This document shows positions 32,801 to 40,500 of a stretch of 64,000 bases of DNA, in pieces (within the stretch, counting starts at the first letter, position 1; every line of letters begins with the position of its first letter). The position numbers were made by a program. The stretch is from Pecten maximus (taxonomy: Eukaryota), in the NCBI RefSeq assembly GCF_902652985.1, contig NC_047015.1, forward strand, positions 23,808,001 to 23,872,000. The letters run 5' to 3'.

Positions 32801-35800
32801 ATACATGTACCTTGTATCTGACACAGGTGATAATATCTACACCGGACTCGAGGTAGGGTGTTTCTCTGTCGCTATAAGTGTCTATGTCAGTGTTTACTTA
32901 TAATAATTATTTAAAATATATATTTCGGCTCCATTTGCAGCATGTGATTATTTGTCAGAGCAAGAGAAGCATAAAACAATCAACTGATTACTATTGTATA
33001 TTTAACCACAAGGGTATCATACGATGTTTGTTTACATTTATTGTCCGAGTATATATAGTCACCTGATTTGGTTGCTACAGTCTTGTACATAGATGTATGA
33101 CACGAATCTTGATATGCGTTATCAGGGACTCTCCATATAATTTTGAATTCATCTTTTTATACCAAAGTTTTGAATACTTAGTCATAATAATTCATGGATA
33201 AAAAGTGCAAAAGAATAGTTTCGATATCGTATTCGCCACGTAGTAATTGTCTGAACAAGAACAACCTAGACCGTTTAGGTAAAACAATTTTATGTTATTC
33301 AGTGGGTGAGACTAAGTTCGATGTAGACAAACCATTATACACGTGGGGCTACGTCAGTTTGAAATTAAAACGGAAATGACTAGTATGTACATTTTATCCG
33401 CCGCTTGTACAAATCGGCAAACCTCGGCTGATTCAAATACCCGGCACTGAAACCTCTATCACTTGATCATGCGGAAATTAACCTTTAATGTTTTGCTAAT
33501 GAAAAACATAAGTATTCGGCATGTGATTGTAAGGAAAATCAAATTTTCTAAAATACAACTAATGAATAATTGAATTTTAATAACACTTTTTATTAATACA
33601 AACCACAAACGTTTTACACGCCATATATTTCTGTTTTATATTGTTAATTATCCAACTCGCTAATACTCAATAAAATTATCTTCAAATTTAACGTTTTATA
33701 TATTCTTTTAACCTATTTTTGTTTTAGAGGCAAGTACTTGATCCAGTTTAGATGTGAATGGAAAGTTGACGACACTATTGATCACATACATCACAATGGC
33801 CACACCAGGCGACGTCAGTACATCGCTTGATGAGAAAAGTCTGAAAACAACTAATGCAAACCCTGTAAATAAAATAACTGTTATTACTATGAATGTAAGC
33901 GGTCCGTATGCCGGGGATGATTCTGCTCGCAGTAGGAGAAAATGTATTTCTGACGTTGTTTGGGCTAATAATCCACACATCCTCCTAATACAAGAATTCC
34001 GATGGAAAGGAATTCGACGGAAGATTTGGGAAAACACTCCTTTACCTGATCGCTATACATACACTGGCAACACGGAAGCTAGTATTATATACGATACCGA
34101 ACGTTTGTGTTTGGAAGAACCAGCAAAATTACAGACAATTTTGGAAGAATTAAAAAGAAAAAGAGAAATATCGGAGGATTTTTCGCCTTTAGCACGTAGT
34201 TGTATACGAGTTTGGAAAACAGATGCATTCAAAGTCCTCGTTGTGTCATGGCATGGTGTACATAGTCGTATTAATAACGAAGAAAAGAAGACGCAGTTCA
34301 GAGATCTGCAAGTGTATTTGAAGAAGCTATCTAAAGAAAAAGAAGCTGCTATACTTTTGGGTGGTGATTTCAATATCAACATTTCCCTAATCAGAAGTCT
34401 TGTCTTCGAGAATTTTACCCTGTATGAGTATAAACCGTCAGAGCGACGAAGCGGAAAGGTTATAGATTATTTTATAACTTCTTCAGAATTGGATCTTACA
34501 GATGTTCGGTATATCGACCTTGTCAAAAGGAAAGAAGATGAAACAACAAAGGACCCGCACGACGTGCTGGATCACGATCCAGTTTCCGCTATTGTGTCCT
34601 CGAGCACGGAGGAGGTGAGTATACCAGCAATAGCATCCACACTAAAACGGTACTCGCGTATACACAAGGGCACATGGTGTTATCGCGGTCCTAATTTTAC
34701 CACAAAAAAAAATAATAAAAATAACAATGATCTAGTTTTCTAAAAAAAAAATCTCTATAGTAGTTAATTTCAGTTTTCTAATCACTCCACAACCCGAAGT
34801 GAGACCAACTACCAAATTAGATTGAAATCCGAATATATTTCGGCTACTTCGATTCCTTCGCTGGAGAGATTAAGAGATAAAGATCGAAGTATATCATGTC
34901 GGGATAAATAACTGAAATTGAATTACCAATAGACTTAATTTTTGTAAGAAAAACAGTACAAATATTATTTGATTACTTACACAATACCTTGAAATATGAC
35001 GTTCCTTCGCATTGATTTGTGTAATCGATAAGTCCAATGCAAAACAAAATAGAACCTAGTAATTTATAACTGCACTGTACAATCACAGGTAAGAAATGAT
35101 CATGGAGTCAAAGAGAATATCTATTGTGGAAGACAATTAGGTTTTATTAACTCCGTTGTCTGCGTATGATAGTTGAGTGAATGGTATGTACTATCATTGT
35201 AGAACGTTACCCCAACTCATTGTAAGTTGTTCAAATGGTAAAGTTGTTTCGAAGGCACACCTTAAATGTAACAGTCCCATGCAAAACTATGGAAGTGAGA
35301 CGTCACAAATGATGTCAGAAGTGGGATTGAAATGTTTGTATCAAAACCAACAGTTCAAAACTTATAAATAAATGTCTCAAAAAATATCAAACAGTTGAAA
35401 TATTTATCCTTTTTTTATGACAAAGTATTTAAATAAAAATGAATGATTCGGTTGTAAAGTATGAGCATAAGCATGTAAGTGAACACTCCATCTTGTACAA
35501 AGTCTAGATGGTTATCAACTAGCTCATAGTCCAGAAGACATAAAATAACAGAAAAAATACATTTTGGGTGAGATTTGAATAGTGAACATTTCGCTATATT
35601 ACGTCAGAAATATATGAGAACTCTACCTGACTTGAAAACTGCGTAAAAACGTGAATAGGGATATTAATGCACTGACATTTTTCAATAAGCAAGTAGGAGG
35701 TTAACTATTTTAAGGATCATGAAACTACTATTTACATTTCTCATATAAGACCAATACTGGAATATGCTAATGTGGTATTGGATAATTGCCCGAAAAACTT

Positions 35801-37506: not shown

Positions 37507-40500
37507 GACGGCATGCTCTCGGGTCGACACTTTCCAAGTAGTATCGTCGTGGGGATAGAAAACGCACATAAGGAAAAATCGATTATTTTGTGACATACCT
37601 GAACATACAGGGATACATGTCAACATACATAAACAGTTAAATCCATTCACTTATAATCCAACTTCAATCCATACTCAAGAATAATTAAATTGTTCTTACA
37701 GAAAACTAGCAAATGCAGCGGTCATGCGACAGCATCTACATCACGAGAAGAACTTGACTTAAGCATAGCTCAGGGGTCTAGCATTGGTATCGACGAGGAC
37801 AAAGCGTCCTTGGAGGATTCATCTTCCCGCAAAAAGGACGAAACTGGTATTAGGATCACACTGGTCGCGGAAGACGAGGGTGAACCCCAGTGTTCTAGGA
37901 CAGCAGCAACATCACCTAGAGAGGACCACAGCACCGCAGCGGGGAATGAAGAGGAAGTCACGTGTAAACCCACAGATAAAACAAACTTAAAATTGACTGA
38001 TATGATGGAACTCCATTTACAACGGTTAATTCTGAACATTGGAGGCACAAGCTTTGAAACTAGTGTAACTACCTTACAACAGGATCCGCAGGGACTACTA
38101 GCAAAAATGGTATTGAAGAACTCGCCTATGAAACCCTACAATGAAGACAAACATCACAAAAGTTATTTTATTGATAGGGATAGCAAACATTTTCCATCTA
38201 TACTTAATTATCTCAGGTATATAGGACAGGGTGTCACAGCTCGAGTACTACCATCAGACAATATCGATTTGGAAGAACTTCTCATTGAAGTCAAATTCTT
38301 TGAGTTACATGGATTAGAAAAACTTGTAGAGCAGAGACTGAGAGAGAGAGGGGGGACTACTCNNNNNNNNNNNNNNNNNNNNNNNNNNNNNNNNNNNNNN
38401 NNNNNNNNNNNNNNNNNNNNNNNNNNNNNNNNNNNNNNNNNNNNNNNNNNNNNNNNNNNNNNNNNNNNNNNNNNNNNNNNNNNNNNNNNNNNNNNCCCGT
38501 GCACATTGTGGTATATATGTCTGTAATAAAGCCATCATTTTACATAAACATAAACTGCCAATTGTAAAATTGAATGCATTGTGCTATACGTGTGTATAAA
38601 AACAACATATGTGTGTGATTAGATCATATTTGTTCGTACAAACAACATCTAGTAATTGACACGTTTTATTTTCTGTGTTATAACCAAATTTGACTTGAAA
38701 ATCAAAATAATTTTGTAATTCAATTAAAGAGATAATGGCTCTCTTACATCAGATGAGTAGGTAATACATGTCAAATGTGTGATGATACTTACATTGTAAA
38801 AATAAGTTCATTTGCATGTTTACACATTGTCTTCATTGACAAGAATTTTAAAATAACACGACTGTCTTATTGTGACCAAAATTCATATCACATTTTCATA
38901 ACATTATACTTTATGACATAGTTAACTTGAACCCTTCTTTCCAAAGCAGTAAACATGTATATCAAATATATAATATATTTATGCATTCGCAAGAATAATG
39001 TAAATGCATATATATGTATCAAGGAAATATACAGTACATGTAAATCACCTAATGAATCTCGCATGCAATATCTATTTAATCGTCTCATATATCCTGTATT
39101 ACTCCATGTACAATATTAATGTACGTCTTTGTTCTAGCTATAGCTTATGGTGAACAACTAAATTTCTGGTTGAAATCCAGGAATTTTTCCTTAAAATATA
39201 TGCATGTATATTAATTAAGAAATCACCACAGAACATGTTCATTAATCTTCATATTATTATTATTATTTTATAAATTTAATTGTTAGTTTAATTTCCATCG
39301 GTATAATGCCTCTATGCTCTCATACATGTACCTTAATTTCATACATGTAGGTACGGTGTATCCAATGAATTGTGCAGGTAAATGTCAATCAAAAGATAAT
39401 TTAAATATAAATACAGTGGAACTTCGTTAACTCGAACTCGGATAAACCGAATACCCCGCTTAACTCGAAGTACCTCGCCGGTCCCGGCCGAATTCTCTCT
39501 TTATCTTAGTAAAAAAAAAACTCGGATAATTCGAATTCGGATAACTCGAAAAACTCGGATAATACGAAGTAGAATTTGGTCCCAACAATAAAAATCCTAC
39601 TTGAAATGTTCGAATAACTCGAAGTATCATTTTTGAGTCTAAAAAAGATCGTTGGTAAACACCGACATTTTTTCAACATCAAATTTCCGGTTGTTATCGG
39701 CACTTCAAACCTACCAATTATTATATGCTACTTAAAGTTCTCAATAAATTAATTAAGCACATTCTCTGTGGAATCGTATAATAACAACTTTCGATGATAA
39801 AAAGTACTGATTAATCATACATCAAGCAATTTCCTTAGGCGGTCGCCGAAAATAACACACACCGCAGTCAACTCACCTACCCGCTCGCTCAAGCGGAACT
39901 AATCTCTGACACGCTACACAGTTAGAATCACAACCTTGGGTCGATACTCGGCTAATGTTTTTACAGGTGAAGAAATAAAACAGTTGCCGGGTCCTATTAA
40001 ATCGTTCAATGACTGAAACAATAATAATTACTGCTGAGGTGTTCAGAGTACCTCTGCATTGAGGAGATGTCATATGTAATTTAGACATAAAAGAAGGGGT
40101 GTTTCTCTGAAAATTCATACCCGTTTCGGAATGTCGAAGTCAATTGAGCAATCCAAGGAAGGACCCGGTAATCCCGGGGGGATAATTGGATCAATTGATA
40201 GGAGGAAGACCGGCGTGAAGAGGAAGATGACGACATATACAATTGAGACGAAGTACCAGGCCATCTTAGCTGTAGAGAGGGGAGACAGGTCAAAATCAGA
40301 CATAGCGAGAGAATTTGGTATTCCATCTAATACCTTGTCAACATGGTTAAAATCAAAAGAAAAGATCGTGACTATCTACAGCAACAACGGACTGAGTCCC
40401 GCTAGAAAAAGGATGAGAACTGCGAAGTTTGACGACATTGAGGCTGCTTTGTTGAAATGGTTCACCCATGCCAGAGATCACAATCTTTCCATTTCCGGTC

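What the first reader, a model, noticed from the sequence alone, without database searches (positions are those of the whole stretch)
33796..38362. Predicted EEP nuclease-BTB(T1) fusion protein hidden by an intron
Seen: just after the last EEP motif (DHDPV) there is a consensus donor GAG|GTGAGT (34614/34615, phase 0). The BTB ORF has no start Met for 100 codons but follows an acceptor TTCTTACAG| (37701/37702) in phase 0. Joining them gives ~497 aa: EEP domain, acidic low-complexity linker, KCTD-type T1/BTB. Known: T1/BTB domains homo-oligomerise and often bind Cullin-3; EEP domains are metal-dependent phosphoesterases or nucleases. Inference: an oligomeric nuclease/phosphoesterase or CUL3-coupled enzyme. 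I do not recognise this architecture; it could be a lineage-specific defence or nucleic-acid-sensing effector.
Basis: partly seen in the sequence, partly recalled or inferred. Interest (0 to 1): 0.75.

Follow-up and report, generated by a model that had tools for sequence, protein, structure and literature searches.

The report
Scallop phosphoesterase-BTB two-exon fusion gene
A king scallop gene appears to join a fast-evolving, scallop-specific metal-phosphoesterase domain to a KCTD-type oligomerisation (BTB) domain across a 3.1-kb intron; the database model already says so, but no transcript evidence could be seen and the function is untested.

Summary
ATG 33796, donor GAG|GTGAGT at 34614/34615 and acceptor CAG| at 37701/37702 are there, both in phase 0. 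The window is Pecten maximus. The public model 'uncharacterized protein LOC117328400' (497 aa) equals exon 1 over residues 1-273 and exon 2 over residues 274-493, so it uses this same junction. The fusion is therefore already annotated, though uncharacterised. Exon 1 folds confidently as an EEP enzyme with all family-conserved active-site residues. Exon 2 is a roughly 90-residue disordered acidic linker plus a KCTD-type BTB. Sequence signals favour real splicing. Against it: named relatives in other scallops are EEP-only with tails homologous to the read-through, and I saw no transcript data. None of the other 151 EEP relatives held carries a BTB. The EEP exon and its tandem paralogue differ at dN/dS about 1 yet both stay open. 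My reading: a young lineage-specific fusion encoding an oligomeric phosphodiesterase. CUL3 coupling and defence roles remain untested.

The parts
33678..33795 (+). Upstream segment shared with the tandem paralogue. It holds a likely 3' splice site (pyrimidine tract plus AG around 33726-33729) and 5'UTR before the ATG.
   Evidence: blastn 33678-33813 vs 23464-23600, 72% identity. The sequence was read. The acceptor role is inferred, not tested.
33796..34614 (+). Coding exon 1, 273 codons: a polar N-terminal lead (residues 1-25) and the EEP domain.
   Evidence: 100% identical to residues 1-273 of P0001. Pfam Exo_endo_phos.
33871..34602 (+). EEP catalytic domain (residues 26-269), carrying N33, E67, H153, D191, N193, D224, D259 and H260.
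   Evidence: AF2 pLDDT 92.0, pTM 0.88, structured from E26 to E269. Near-invariant columns in 70 family members. Foldseek best matches are TDP2, nocturnin and CNOT6L.
34615..34620 (+). 5' splice site GTGAGT, phase 0.
   Evidence: It is the only AGGTRAGT on the + strand of the window. It is the junction used by P0001. The paralogue has GATAAG at the aligned place.
34615..34743 (+). Read-through tail: 42 codons plus a stop if the transcript is unspliced. It is an ancestral-type coding tail that is now intronic in the model. AATAAA lies at 34714.
   Evidence: ORF 33754..34743. The tail aligns with the coding tails of scallop relatives.
34615..37701 (+). Intron, 3087 nt, 32% G+C, filled with repeat-derived sequence.
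   Evidence: Bounds are set by P0001.
35821..36279 (+). 152-codon ORF inside the intron. It is a fragment of an interspersed repeat, with a second related copy at 41625-41932.
   Evidence: tblastn to 41625-41765 and 41834-41932, E=2e-13. No Pfam family above cut-off. The likeness to the C-terminal tail of non-LTR retrotransposon proteins is recalled, not tested.
36494..37126 (.). Nested inverted repeats in the intron, with arms of 25-50 nt that are 83-98% complementary.
   Evidence: pairs I1-I5.
37468..37505 (+). Run of 38 G in the intron.
37690..37701 (+). 3' splice site TTGTTCTTACAG.
   Evidence: P0001 residue 274 starts at 37702.
37702..38362 (+). Coding exon 2, visible part: 220 codons plus 1 base. 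It runs into the masked stretch.
   Evidence: 100% identical to residues 274-493 of P0001.
37702..37971 (+). Acidic, Ser/Thr-rich disordered linker (exon-2 residues 1-90). G+C is 0.48 over 37702-38010.
   Evidence: pLDDT 41-52. G+C. The frame has 0 stops against 5 and 12 in the other frames.
38023..38352 (+). KCTD-type T1/BTB domain (exon-2 residues 108-217), preceded by a helix at residues 92-105.
   Evidence: Pfam BTB_2 E=2.1e-18. KCTD5 E=1.9e-10. pLDDT 85-97. Foldseek finds KCTD1/5/13/10/9 BTB chains with TM 0.78-0.83 relative to the target.
38363..38495 (.). Run of 133 N. It hides the last few codons and the stop. It was not filled or looked up.
   Evidence: P0001 is 497 aa against 493 visible codons.
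38525..38530 (+). AATAAA, a candidate polyadenylation signal for a terminal BTB exon.
   Evidence: The background is 106 AATAAA on the + strand of 64 kb, so this is weak evidence.
23583..24494 (+). Tandem paralogue. It is an EEP-only ORF of 303 codons with a hydrophobic C-terminal tail. AATAAA lies at 24496. No BTB follows it.
   Evidence: tblastn 55% identity over 275 aa, E=3e-92, and no second BTB in the window. Pfam Exo_endo_phos 7e-10. Sequence read.

Best explanation
This is a real two-coding-exon gene of Pecten maximus.

Exon 1 encodes a cytosolic-type EEP metal-dependent phosphodiesterase with no signal peptide-like start. It belongs to a family whose named close members are all scallop proteins. 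Exon 2 encodes a disordered acidic linker of about 90 residues and a BTB-only T1 domain of KCTD type.

The most likely history is as follows. A tandem duplicate of an EEP-only gene gained a strong 5' splice site inside its old coding tail. It now splices to a BTB-only reading frame 3.1 kb downstream that has no start codon of its own.

The product would be a homo-oligomer held by the T1 domain, by analogy with KCTD tetramers and pentamers. It would carry several EEP heads on flexible tethers, raising avidity for a polymeric phosphodiester substrate, most likely nucleic-acid ends.

Shown: the exons, the signals, the folds, the conserved active-site residues, identity to the public model, and the uniqueness of the domain pair among relatives. 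Inferred: use of the junction in vivo, oligomerisation, substrate, and the order of evolutionary events. An unspliced EEP-only isoform may coexist.
For: Gene model:
- The public model P0001 (497 aa) equals exon 1 and exon 2 end to end.
- The only AGGTRAGT on the + strand of 64 kb is this donor. It sits in phase 0, within the last four codons of exon 1 after the final strand of the fold.
- The exon-2 frame is open for 115 codons before its first ATG. The other frames have 5 and 12 stops, and 25 of 20000 composition-matched shuffles are open.
- Linker G+C is 0.48 against 0.32 in the intron.
- BTB relatives all carry N-terminal sequence before the domain, and a helix at residues 92-105 would be cut by a start at the first Met.

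History:
- The paralogue has GATAAG where this gene has GTGAGT.
- The read-through tail lacks the ending shared by 4 of 7 relatives.

Enzyme and BTB:
- N33, Q66, E67, S151, W152, H153, G154, G190, D191, F192, N193, D224 and H260 are invariant or at least 90% conserved in 70 sequences, and all are present here.
- The AF2 model of exon 1 has pLDDT 92.
- The BTB matches KCTD chains.

Selection:
- There are 182 differences in 768 aligned nt, all gaps are whole codons, and both copies are open. Only 13 of 20000 neutral simulations stay open.
Against: - I saw no transcript or peptide evidence. A gene predictor can chain two open exons with good signals on its own.
- The P0001 cluster has 1 member on 1 contig, from NCBI-derived sources only.
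- All 4 near-length relatives are EEP-only (Argopecten irradians x2, Mizuhopecten yessoensis x2). The residues just past the donor are homologous to their coding tails.
- AATAAA at 34714 sits just before the read-through stop, as expected for an EEP-only mRNA.
- The best relative of exon 2 is a 157-aa BTB-only protein at 43% identity. No scallop relative of exon 2 of 121-385 aa was found, so nothing shows that the exon is conserved.
- dN/dS of about 1 also fits relaxed constraint.
- The Pfam score of exon 1 is only 1.4 bits above cut-off.
- Oligomerisation, substrate and CUL3 binding were not tested.
Confidence: 0.58

Rival explanations
1. The 497-aa model is a prediction chimera. The EEP gene is a single-coding-exon gene that reads through to the stop at 34741-34743, giving 315 aa like its relatives. 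The BTB frame is either a separate small gene starting at the ATG at 38002, giving a BTB-only protein like P0006, or a decaying remnant.
For: - Relatives are EEP-only, 270-342 aa.
- The tail past the donor is homologous to their coding tails.
- AATAAA lies at 34714.
- The closest relative of exon 2 is a stand-alone 157-aa BTB protein.
- None of the other 151 EEP relatives has a BTB.
- No transcript-derived copy of either exon was seen in the protein collection.
Against: - The sole + strand AGGTRAGT falls exactly there, in phase.
- A 115-codon open frame with raised G+C lies upstream of the first Met. The other frames have 5 and 12 stops, and 25 of 20000 shuffles are open.
- A start at 38002 would truncate the helix that precedes the BTB, and would leave less N-terminal lead than any of the 6 relatives has.
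- The read-through tail has lost the ending shared by relatives.
Confidence: 0.28
2. The BTB exon is real, but it is spliced from another, unrecognised start-codon exon inside 34744-37701 or further upstream. The EEP and BTB products would then be separate proteins from overlapping transcription units.
For: Four short ATG-started frames of 12-30 codons end in phase 0 at GT[AG]AG sites inside the interval, at 35222, 35295, 35475 and 37070.
Against: - None of the four has the AG|GTRAGT quality of the 34615 donor.
- The interval is repeat-derived and 32% G+C.
- No such protein of 121-385 aa, identical to exon 2, is in the collection.
Confidence: 0.07
3. The EEP exon is the endonuclease part of a decayed non-LTR retrotransposon, with the tail-like ORF at 35821-36279 as its far end. 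It would then not be a cellular gene.
For: - The profile of the family weakly matches LINE-1 endonuclease chains, E=5e-5 to 1e-4, over the N-terminal third only.
- A repeat-derived ORF lies 1.1 kb downstream.
- A few distant relatives have sub-threshold Exo_endo_phos_2 matches.
Against: - 0 of 30 long relatives scanned show a reverse-transcriptase family.
- Bacteroides EEP chains score better than LINE-1.
- TDP2, nocturnin and CNOT6L are the best folds.
- The duplicated unit is only 33678-34607 and excludes the downstream ORF.
- Only one P. maximus protein of this family appeared in the collection, so it is not a high-copy family.
- Both copies stay open despite 24% divergence.
Confidence: 0.03

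Closest known systems
Public model 'uncharacterized protein LOC117328400 [Pecten maximus]' (P0001, 497 aa)
   Same: It is identical to exon 1 (residues 1-273) and exon 2 (residues 274-493), with the same junction.
   Different: Nothing differs in the visible part. It is a computed, uncharacterised model. Its last four residues fall in the masked stretch and were not read.
Scallop EEP-only proteins: Argopecten irradians (P0002, P0004) and Mizuhopecten yessoensis KP79_PYT05526 and LOC110447001 (P0003, P0005)
   Same: They share the same EEP domain at 55-58% identity over 74-90% of exon 1. They have the same conserved active-site positions and homologous C-terminal tails just past the donor.
   Different: They are 270-342 aa with no BTB. 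Their tails are coding and end after about 25-35 more residues.
TDP2 (5'-tyrosyl-DNA phosphodiesterase 2), nocturnin, CNOT6L; Bacteroides EEP proteins 3mpr/4c1r
   Same: They share the EEP fold. By Foldseek, TDP2 scores E=1.3e-11 with TM 0.61/0.68, and nocturnin and CNOT6L have TM about 0.6. By profile, 3mpr/4c1r score E=1e-6.
   Different: Identity is only 10-18%. TM values do not separate the subfamilies. The TDP2 profile match covers only about 50 N-terminal positions. No subfamily can be assigned.
KCTD-family T1/BTB domains (KCTD5, KCTD9, KCTD1, KCTD13, KCTD10)
   Same: The sequence matches KCTD5 at E=1.9e-10, and the fold has TM 0.78-0.83 relative to BTB-only chains.
   Different: No KCTD-type C-terminal domain can follow, because the model ends 4 residues after the visible part. 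N-terminally it is fused to an enzyme, which no KCTD hit shows.
P0006, an unnamed 157-aa BTB-only protein
   Same: It is 43% identical over 148 columns, including about 40 residues before the BTB.
   Different: It stands alone with its own start. Its source organism is unknown.

Membership tests
EEP superfamily (Pfam PF03372 Exo_endo_phos) | Profile match above the curated cut-off | tested here: met
   25.9 bits against 24.5, E=1e-5, residues 31-237. This is marginal. The paralogue scores 39.5 bits.
EEP superfamily (Pfam PF03372 Exo_endo_phos) | Alpha/beta sandwich fold shared with solved EEP enzymes | tested here: met
   AF2 pLDDT 92.0, pTM 0.88. 217 PDB chains match at E<=0.001, and all those listed are EEP enzymes.
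EEP superfamily (Pfam PF03372 Exo_endo_phos) | Conserved metal-binding and catalytic residues: Asn after strand 1, Glu after strand 2, Asp-x-Asn, Asp, Asp-His. The roles of these residues are recalled. | tested here: met
   N33, E67, D191, N193, D224 and H260 are at least 90% conserved in 70 sequences and present here. D259 is read.
EEP superfamily (Pfam PF03372 Exo_endo_phos) | Metal-dependent phosphoester hydrolysis | not testable with these tools
TDP2 family | Specific sequence relationship over the whole catalytic domain | tested here: not met
   The single sequence finds no PDB relative. The profile match to TDP2 chains has E>=1.5e-4 and covers only positions 7-60 or 9-60, at most 10-98.
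TDP2 family | N-terminal UBA-type domain (feature recalled) | tested here: not met
   Residues 1-25 are a disordered lead, and there is no second Pfam family in exon 1.
KCTD / T1-type BTB (Pfam PF02214 BTB_2) | Profile match and fold | tested here: met
   66.9 bits against 21.4. KCTD5 E=1.9e-10. pLDDT 85-97 and KCTD BTB chains with TM 0.78-0.83.
KCTD / T1-type BTB (Pfam PF02214 BTB_2) | Homo-tetramer or pentamer formation | not tested
   Only a monomer was modelled. The tools fold one chain.
KCTD proteins as CUL3 substrate adaptors | CUL3-binding surface and a C-terminal substrate-binding domain (features recalled) | tested here: not met
   A C-terminal domain is absent. P0001 is 497 aa and the BTB helix ends at residue 490 of it. 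The CUL3 contact residues were not examined.
Non-LTR retrotransposon APE-type endonuclease | Endonuclease joined to a reverse transcriptase in one ORF or element | tested here: not met
   0 of 30 long relatives show an RT family. The + strand between 34744 and 35820 holds one ORF of at least 50 aa, 64 aa long, which I did not scan.

The most novel reading that the evidence does not exclude
This is a gene born recently in the Pecten lineage. A tandem copy of a fast-diversifying, scallop-specific EEP phosphodiesterase acquired a consensus 5' splice site inside its own coding tail and captured a start-less BTB-only reading frame. The result is an oligomerising, multi-headed nuclease or phosphodiesterase that takes part in a host-parasite conflict. 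The conflict reading rests on dN/dS of about 1 or more with conserved active-site residues. No other member of the family, and no paper found, shows this domain pair.
Probability: 0.12. Interest if true: 0.7.

Novelty: new variant of a known kind. Interest (0 to 1): 0.4.

Why it matters
If transcripts confirm the junction, this is a clean, datable case of a new domain architecture made by a point gain of a splice donor. The ancestral state survives 10 kb upstream in the same window and in other scallops. It would also mark an unstudied family of standalone EEP enzymes. That family has 209 representatives at E<=0.001, and its named close members are only scallop proteins. Its two copies here diverge as fast at replacement as at silent sites while keeping the catalytic residues, a pattern often seen in conflict-driven genes. 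If the junction is not used, the value is a caution about one database model.

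Tried and rejected
- LINE endonuclease origin: rejected. 0 of 30 long relatives have a reverse-transcriptase family, and the duplicated unit excludes the downstream repeat ORF.
- A second EEP-BTB pair at the upstream paralogue: rejected. tblastn with exon 2 finds no other BTB in the window, best E=4.2.
- Subfamily assignment of the EEP domain: this led nowhere.
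  - The single sequence against PDB gave one chance-level hit, E=1.1.
  - The profile gave weak, partial matches to several subfamilies.
  - Foldseek TM values of about 0.6 do not discriminate.
  - The viral library gave only generic giant-virus EEP proteins with TM 0.5-0.66.
  - NCBIfam matches were far below cut-offs.
  - The Atlas returned generic EEP clusters.
- Partner domains of long relatives: no Pfam family above its curated cut-off other than the EEP family itself in 30 of 30.
- Literature: 0 papers for 'Exo_endo_phos'+'BTB_2', for 'endonuclease exonuclease phosphatase'+'BTB'+'KCTD', for 'LOC117328400', and for 'endonuclease exonuclease phosphatase'+'scallop'.

Unchecked:
- Genome contigs holds only bacteria and archaea and was not used.
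- No eukaryotic genome or transcript collection was at hand, so synteny in other scallops and junction reads stayed unchecked.
Supplementary File 3 of PMC7191990 (read mapping per gene model, mentioned in the passages) may bear on expression, but it concerns a different annotation.

I ran no search, fold or family scan with the two exons joined or with P0001 as query. Each exon was searched and folded on its own.

Full report
**What is there.**
- The window reads as the first-stage reader said. An ATG lies at 33796, and 273 codons follow to GAG at 34612-34614. GTGAGT is at 34615-34620.
- If unspliced, the frame runs on for 42 codons to a stop at 34741-34743.
- At 37690-37701 lies TTGTTCTTACAG, and 37702 starts a codon of a long open frame.
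- That frame has no ATG until 38002. It is open for 115 codons back to a stop ending at 37656.
- The frame runs into a run of 133 N at 38363-38495. I left this as it stands.
- Pfam finds Exo_endo_phos in exon 1 (E=1e-5, 25.9 bits against a cut-off of 24.5) and BTB_2 in exon 2 (E=2.1e-18).

**Whose gene it is.**
- A search with exon 1 alone among longer proteins returned one hit: 'uncharacterized protein LOC117328400 [Pecten maximus]', 497 aa, 100% identical over all of exon 1, carrying PF02214.
- Comparing that protein with each exon separately gives 273 of 273 identities to its residues 1-273, and 220 of 220 to its residues 274-493.
- The public model therefore uses exactly the junction 34614|37702.
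- The four further residues of the model fall in the masked stretch, and I did not read them.

**Is the junction more than chance?**
- AG|GTRAGT occurs four times in the window on both strands and once on the + strand, at this donor. The full 9-mer with A or C at -3 does not match here, because the base is G.
- The donor lies within the last four codons of exon 1, after the final strand of the predicted fold (E263-269), and in phase 0.
- The exon-2 frame upstream of its first Met has 0 stops against 5 and 12 in the other two frames. Only 25 of 20000 shuffles of the same composition are open.
- Linker G+C is 0.48 against 0.32 in the intron.
- The six relatives of exon 2 all have sequence before the BTB. 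The model of exon 2 has a helix at residues 92-105 that a start at the first Met (residue 101 of exon 2) would cut.
Four other GT[AG]AG sites have frames of 12-30 codons and cannot be excluded.

**What speaks against it.**
- I had no transcript data.
- The cluster of the public protein has one member on one contig.
- Neither exon has an identical copy of another length in the collection within the ranges searched: 150-478 aa for exon 1 and 121-385 aa for exon 2.
- The four near-length relatives of exon 1 are all scallop proteins of 270-342 aa with the EEP domain only.
- In the alignment of nine sequences, the Ile/Leu-Pro pair just past the donor is shared by the window's paralogue and by P0002, P0003, P0005, P0012 and P0013. 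P0004 ends before it, and P0014 has a repeat insertion there.
- The stretch that the model treats as intron therefore descends from a coding tail.
- Four of the seven relatives end in the same three residues, which the read-through tail here lacks.
- AATAAA lies at 34714, just before the read-through stop. It also lies at 24496, two bases after the paralogue's stop, and at 38525, after the masked stretch. With 106 such hexamers on the + strand, each is weak evidence.

**The paralogue and the history.**
- A second EEP ORF of 303 codons lies at 23583-24494, 55% identical in protein, with Exo_endo_phos at E=7e-10.
- DNA similarity runs over 33678-33813 and 33881-34607, against 23464-23600 and 23629-24391, and stops at the donor.
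- No BTB follows the paralogue. It ends in a hydrophobic tail.
- At the place of GTGAGT it has GATAAG.
- The simplest history is a tandem duplication of an EEP-only gene, followed in this copy by gain of a donor in the tail and use of a downstream BTB frame. The order of events is inferred.

**Rate of change.**
- Between the two copies, 182 of 768 aligned bases differ: 76, 52 and 54 at codon positions 1, 2 and 3.
- Nei-Gojobori estimates are dS 0.28, dN 0.286 and ratio 1.02. For residues 27-269 they are 0.22, 0.27 and 1.23.
- All alignment gaps are whole codons and both frames are open. In a crude neutral simulation, 13 of 20000 sequences keep the frame.
- The copies are therefore kept as genes while their residues change quickly.
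- With two sequences, this cannot separate diversifying from relaxed selection.

**The enzyme domain.**
- The exhaustive search with exon 1 found 209 representatives at E<=0.001, 107 at 1e-10 and 35 at 1e-30.
- In an alignment of exon 1, the paralogue and 68 of these relatives, S151 and G190 are invariant. N33, Q66, E67, W152, H153, G154, D191, F192, N193, D224 and H260 are at least 90% conserved, and all are present here.
- The model has pLDDT 92.0 and pTM 0.88.
- Its best solved look-alikes are TDP2 (E=1.3e-11, TM 0.61/0.68), nocturnin, CNOT6L and a Bacteroides EEP protein.
- By profile, the best are Bacteroides EEP chains (1e-6), then LINE-1 endonuclease and TDP2 over partial stretches.
- No subfamily can be assigned. 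The domain looks like an active phosphodiesterase of unknown substrate.

**The BTB part.**
- Residues 1-90 of exon 2 are predicted disordered (pLDDT 41-52). Residues 108-217 form a confident BTB.
- It matches KCTD5 by sequence (1.9e-10) and KCTD1/5/13/10/9 by fold.
- The model ends a few residues after the domain, so there is no KCTD-type C-terminal domain.
- Oligomerisation is expected by analogy only. CUL3 binding was not examined.

**How unusual is the pair?**
- Pfam scans of 30 relatives of 411-1006 aa found no BTB.
- phmmer with exon 2 against all 158 proteins held found only P0001 and the six exon-2 hits. The next best was E=0.024.
- The 59 representatives beyond the 150 listed were not seen.
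- Four literature searches gave no paper.
- Of PMC7191990 I saw the listing and passages. Of PMC8437780 I saw only the listing and the start of the abstract.

**Verdict.**
The architecture is real as a gene model and already public. Its use in vivo is likely but unproven. The proposed CUL3 or defence roles are open.
- I rate it a new variant of known kinds, of moderate interest.

Noticed in passing
window 59017-60534 (+): An uninterrupted 505-codon ORF built of many repeats of a short Gly-Trp-Asp-Gly-containing unit flanked by dibasic sites. It has no Pfam family. It looks like a multi-copy secreted-peptide precursor. That idea is recalled, not tested.
   Followed up: partly
window 55500-56585: A tandem repeat with a unit of about 13 codons that gives long open frames on both strands, 361 and 314 codons.
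   Followed up: no
window 40131-41768 (+): An uninterrupted 545-codon ORF of a pogo/Tigger-type DDE transposase: DDE_1 2e-42, HTH_Tnp_Tc5 5e-18, CENP-B_N 3e-10. G+C here is 0.45, the highest in the window.
   Followed up: partly
window 41625-41932 and 35821-36279: The repeat-derived ORF inside the intron has a second, related copy that abuts and overlaps the end of the transposase ORF (tblastn E=2e-13).
   Followed up: partly
window 37468-37505: A run of 38 G lies inside the intron, about 200 nt before the acceptor. It could be a sequencing or assembly oddity, or a G-quadruplex-prone tract.
   Followed up: no
window 36494-37126: Nested inverted repeats, with arms of 25-50 nt that are 83-98% complementary, suggest small foldback-type repeat insertions in the intron.
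   Followed up: no
window 23583-24494 (+): The tandem EEP paralogue ends in a stretch of about 20 hydrophobic residues, unlike all aligned relatives. This hints at a tail-anchored form. It did not appear as a separate protein in the collection searches.
   Followed up: partly
P0019, P0022, P0023, P0025-P0028, P0038, P0039, P0047, P0050 (representative library): Many more distant relatives carry the EEP domain at the C-terminal end of proteins of 493-661 aa. Their N-terminal 215-375 residues have no Pfam family. They may hold an undescribed partner domain.
   Followed up: no
window 18269-19476 (-) and 9292-9852 (-): Three ORFs of 166-186 codons have no Pfam family. Their origin is unknown.
   Followed up: partly
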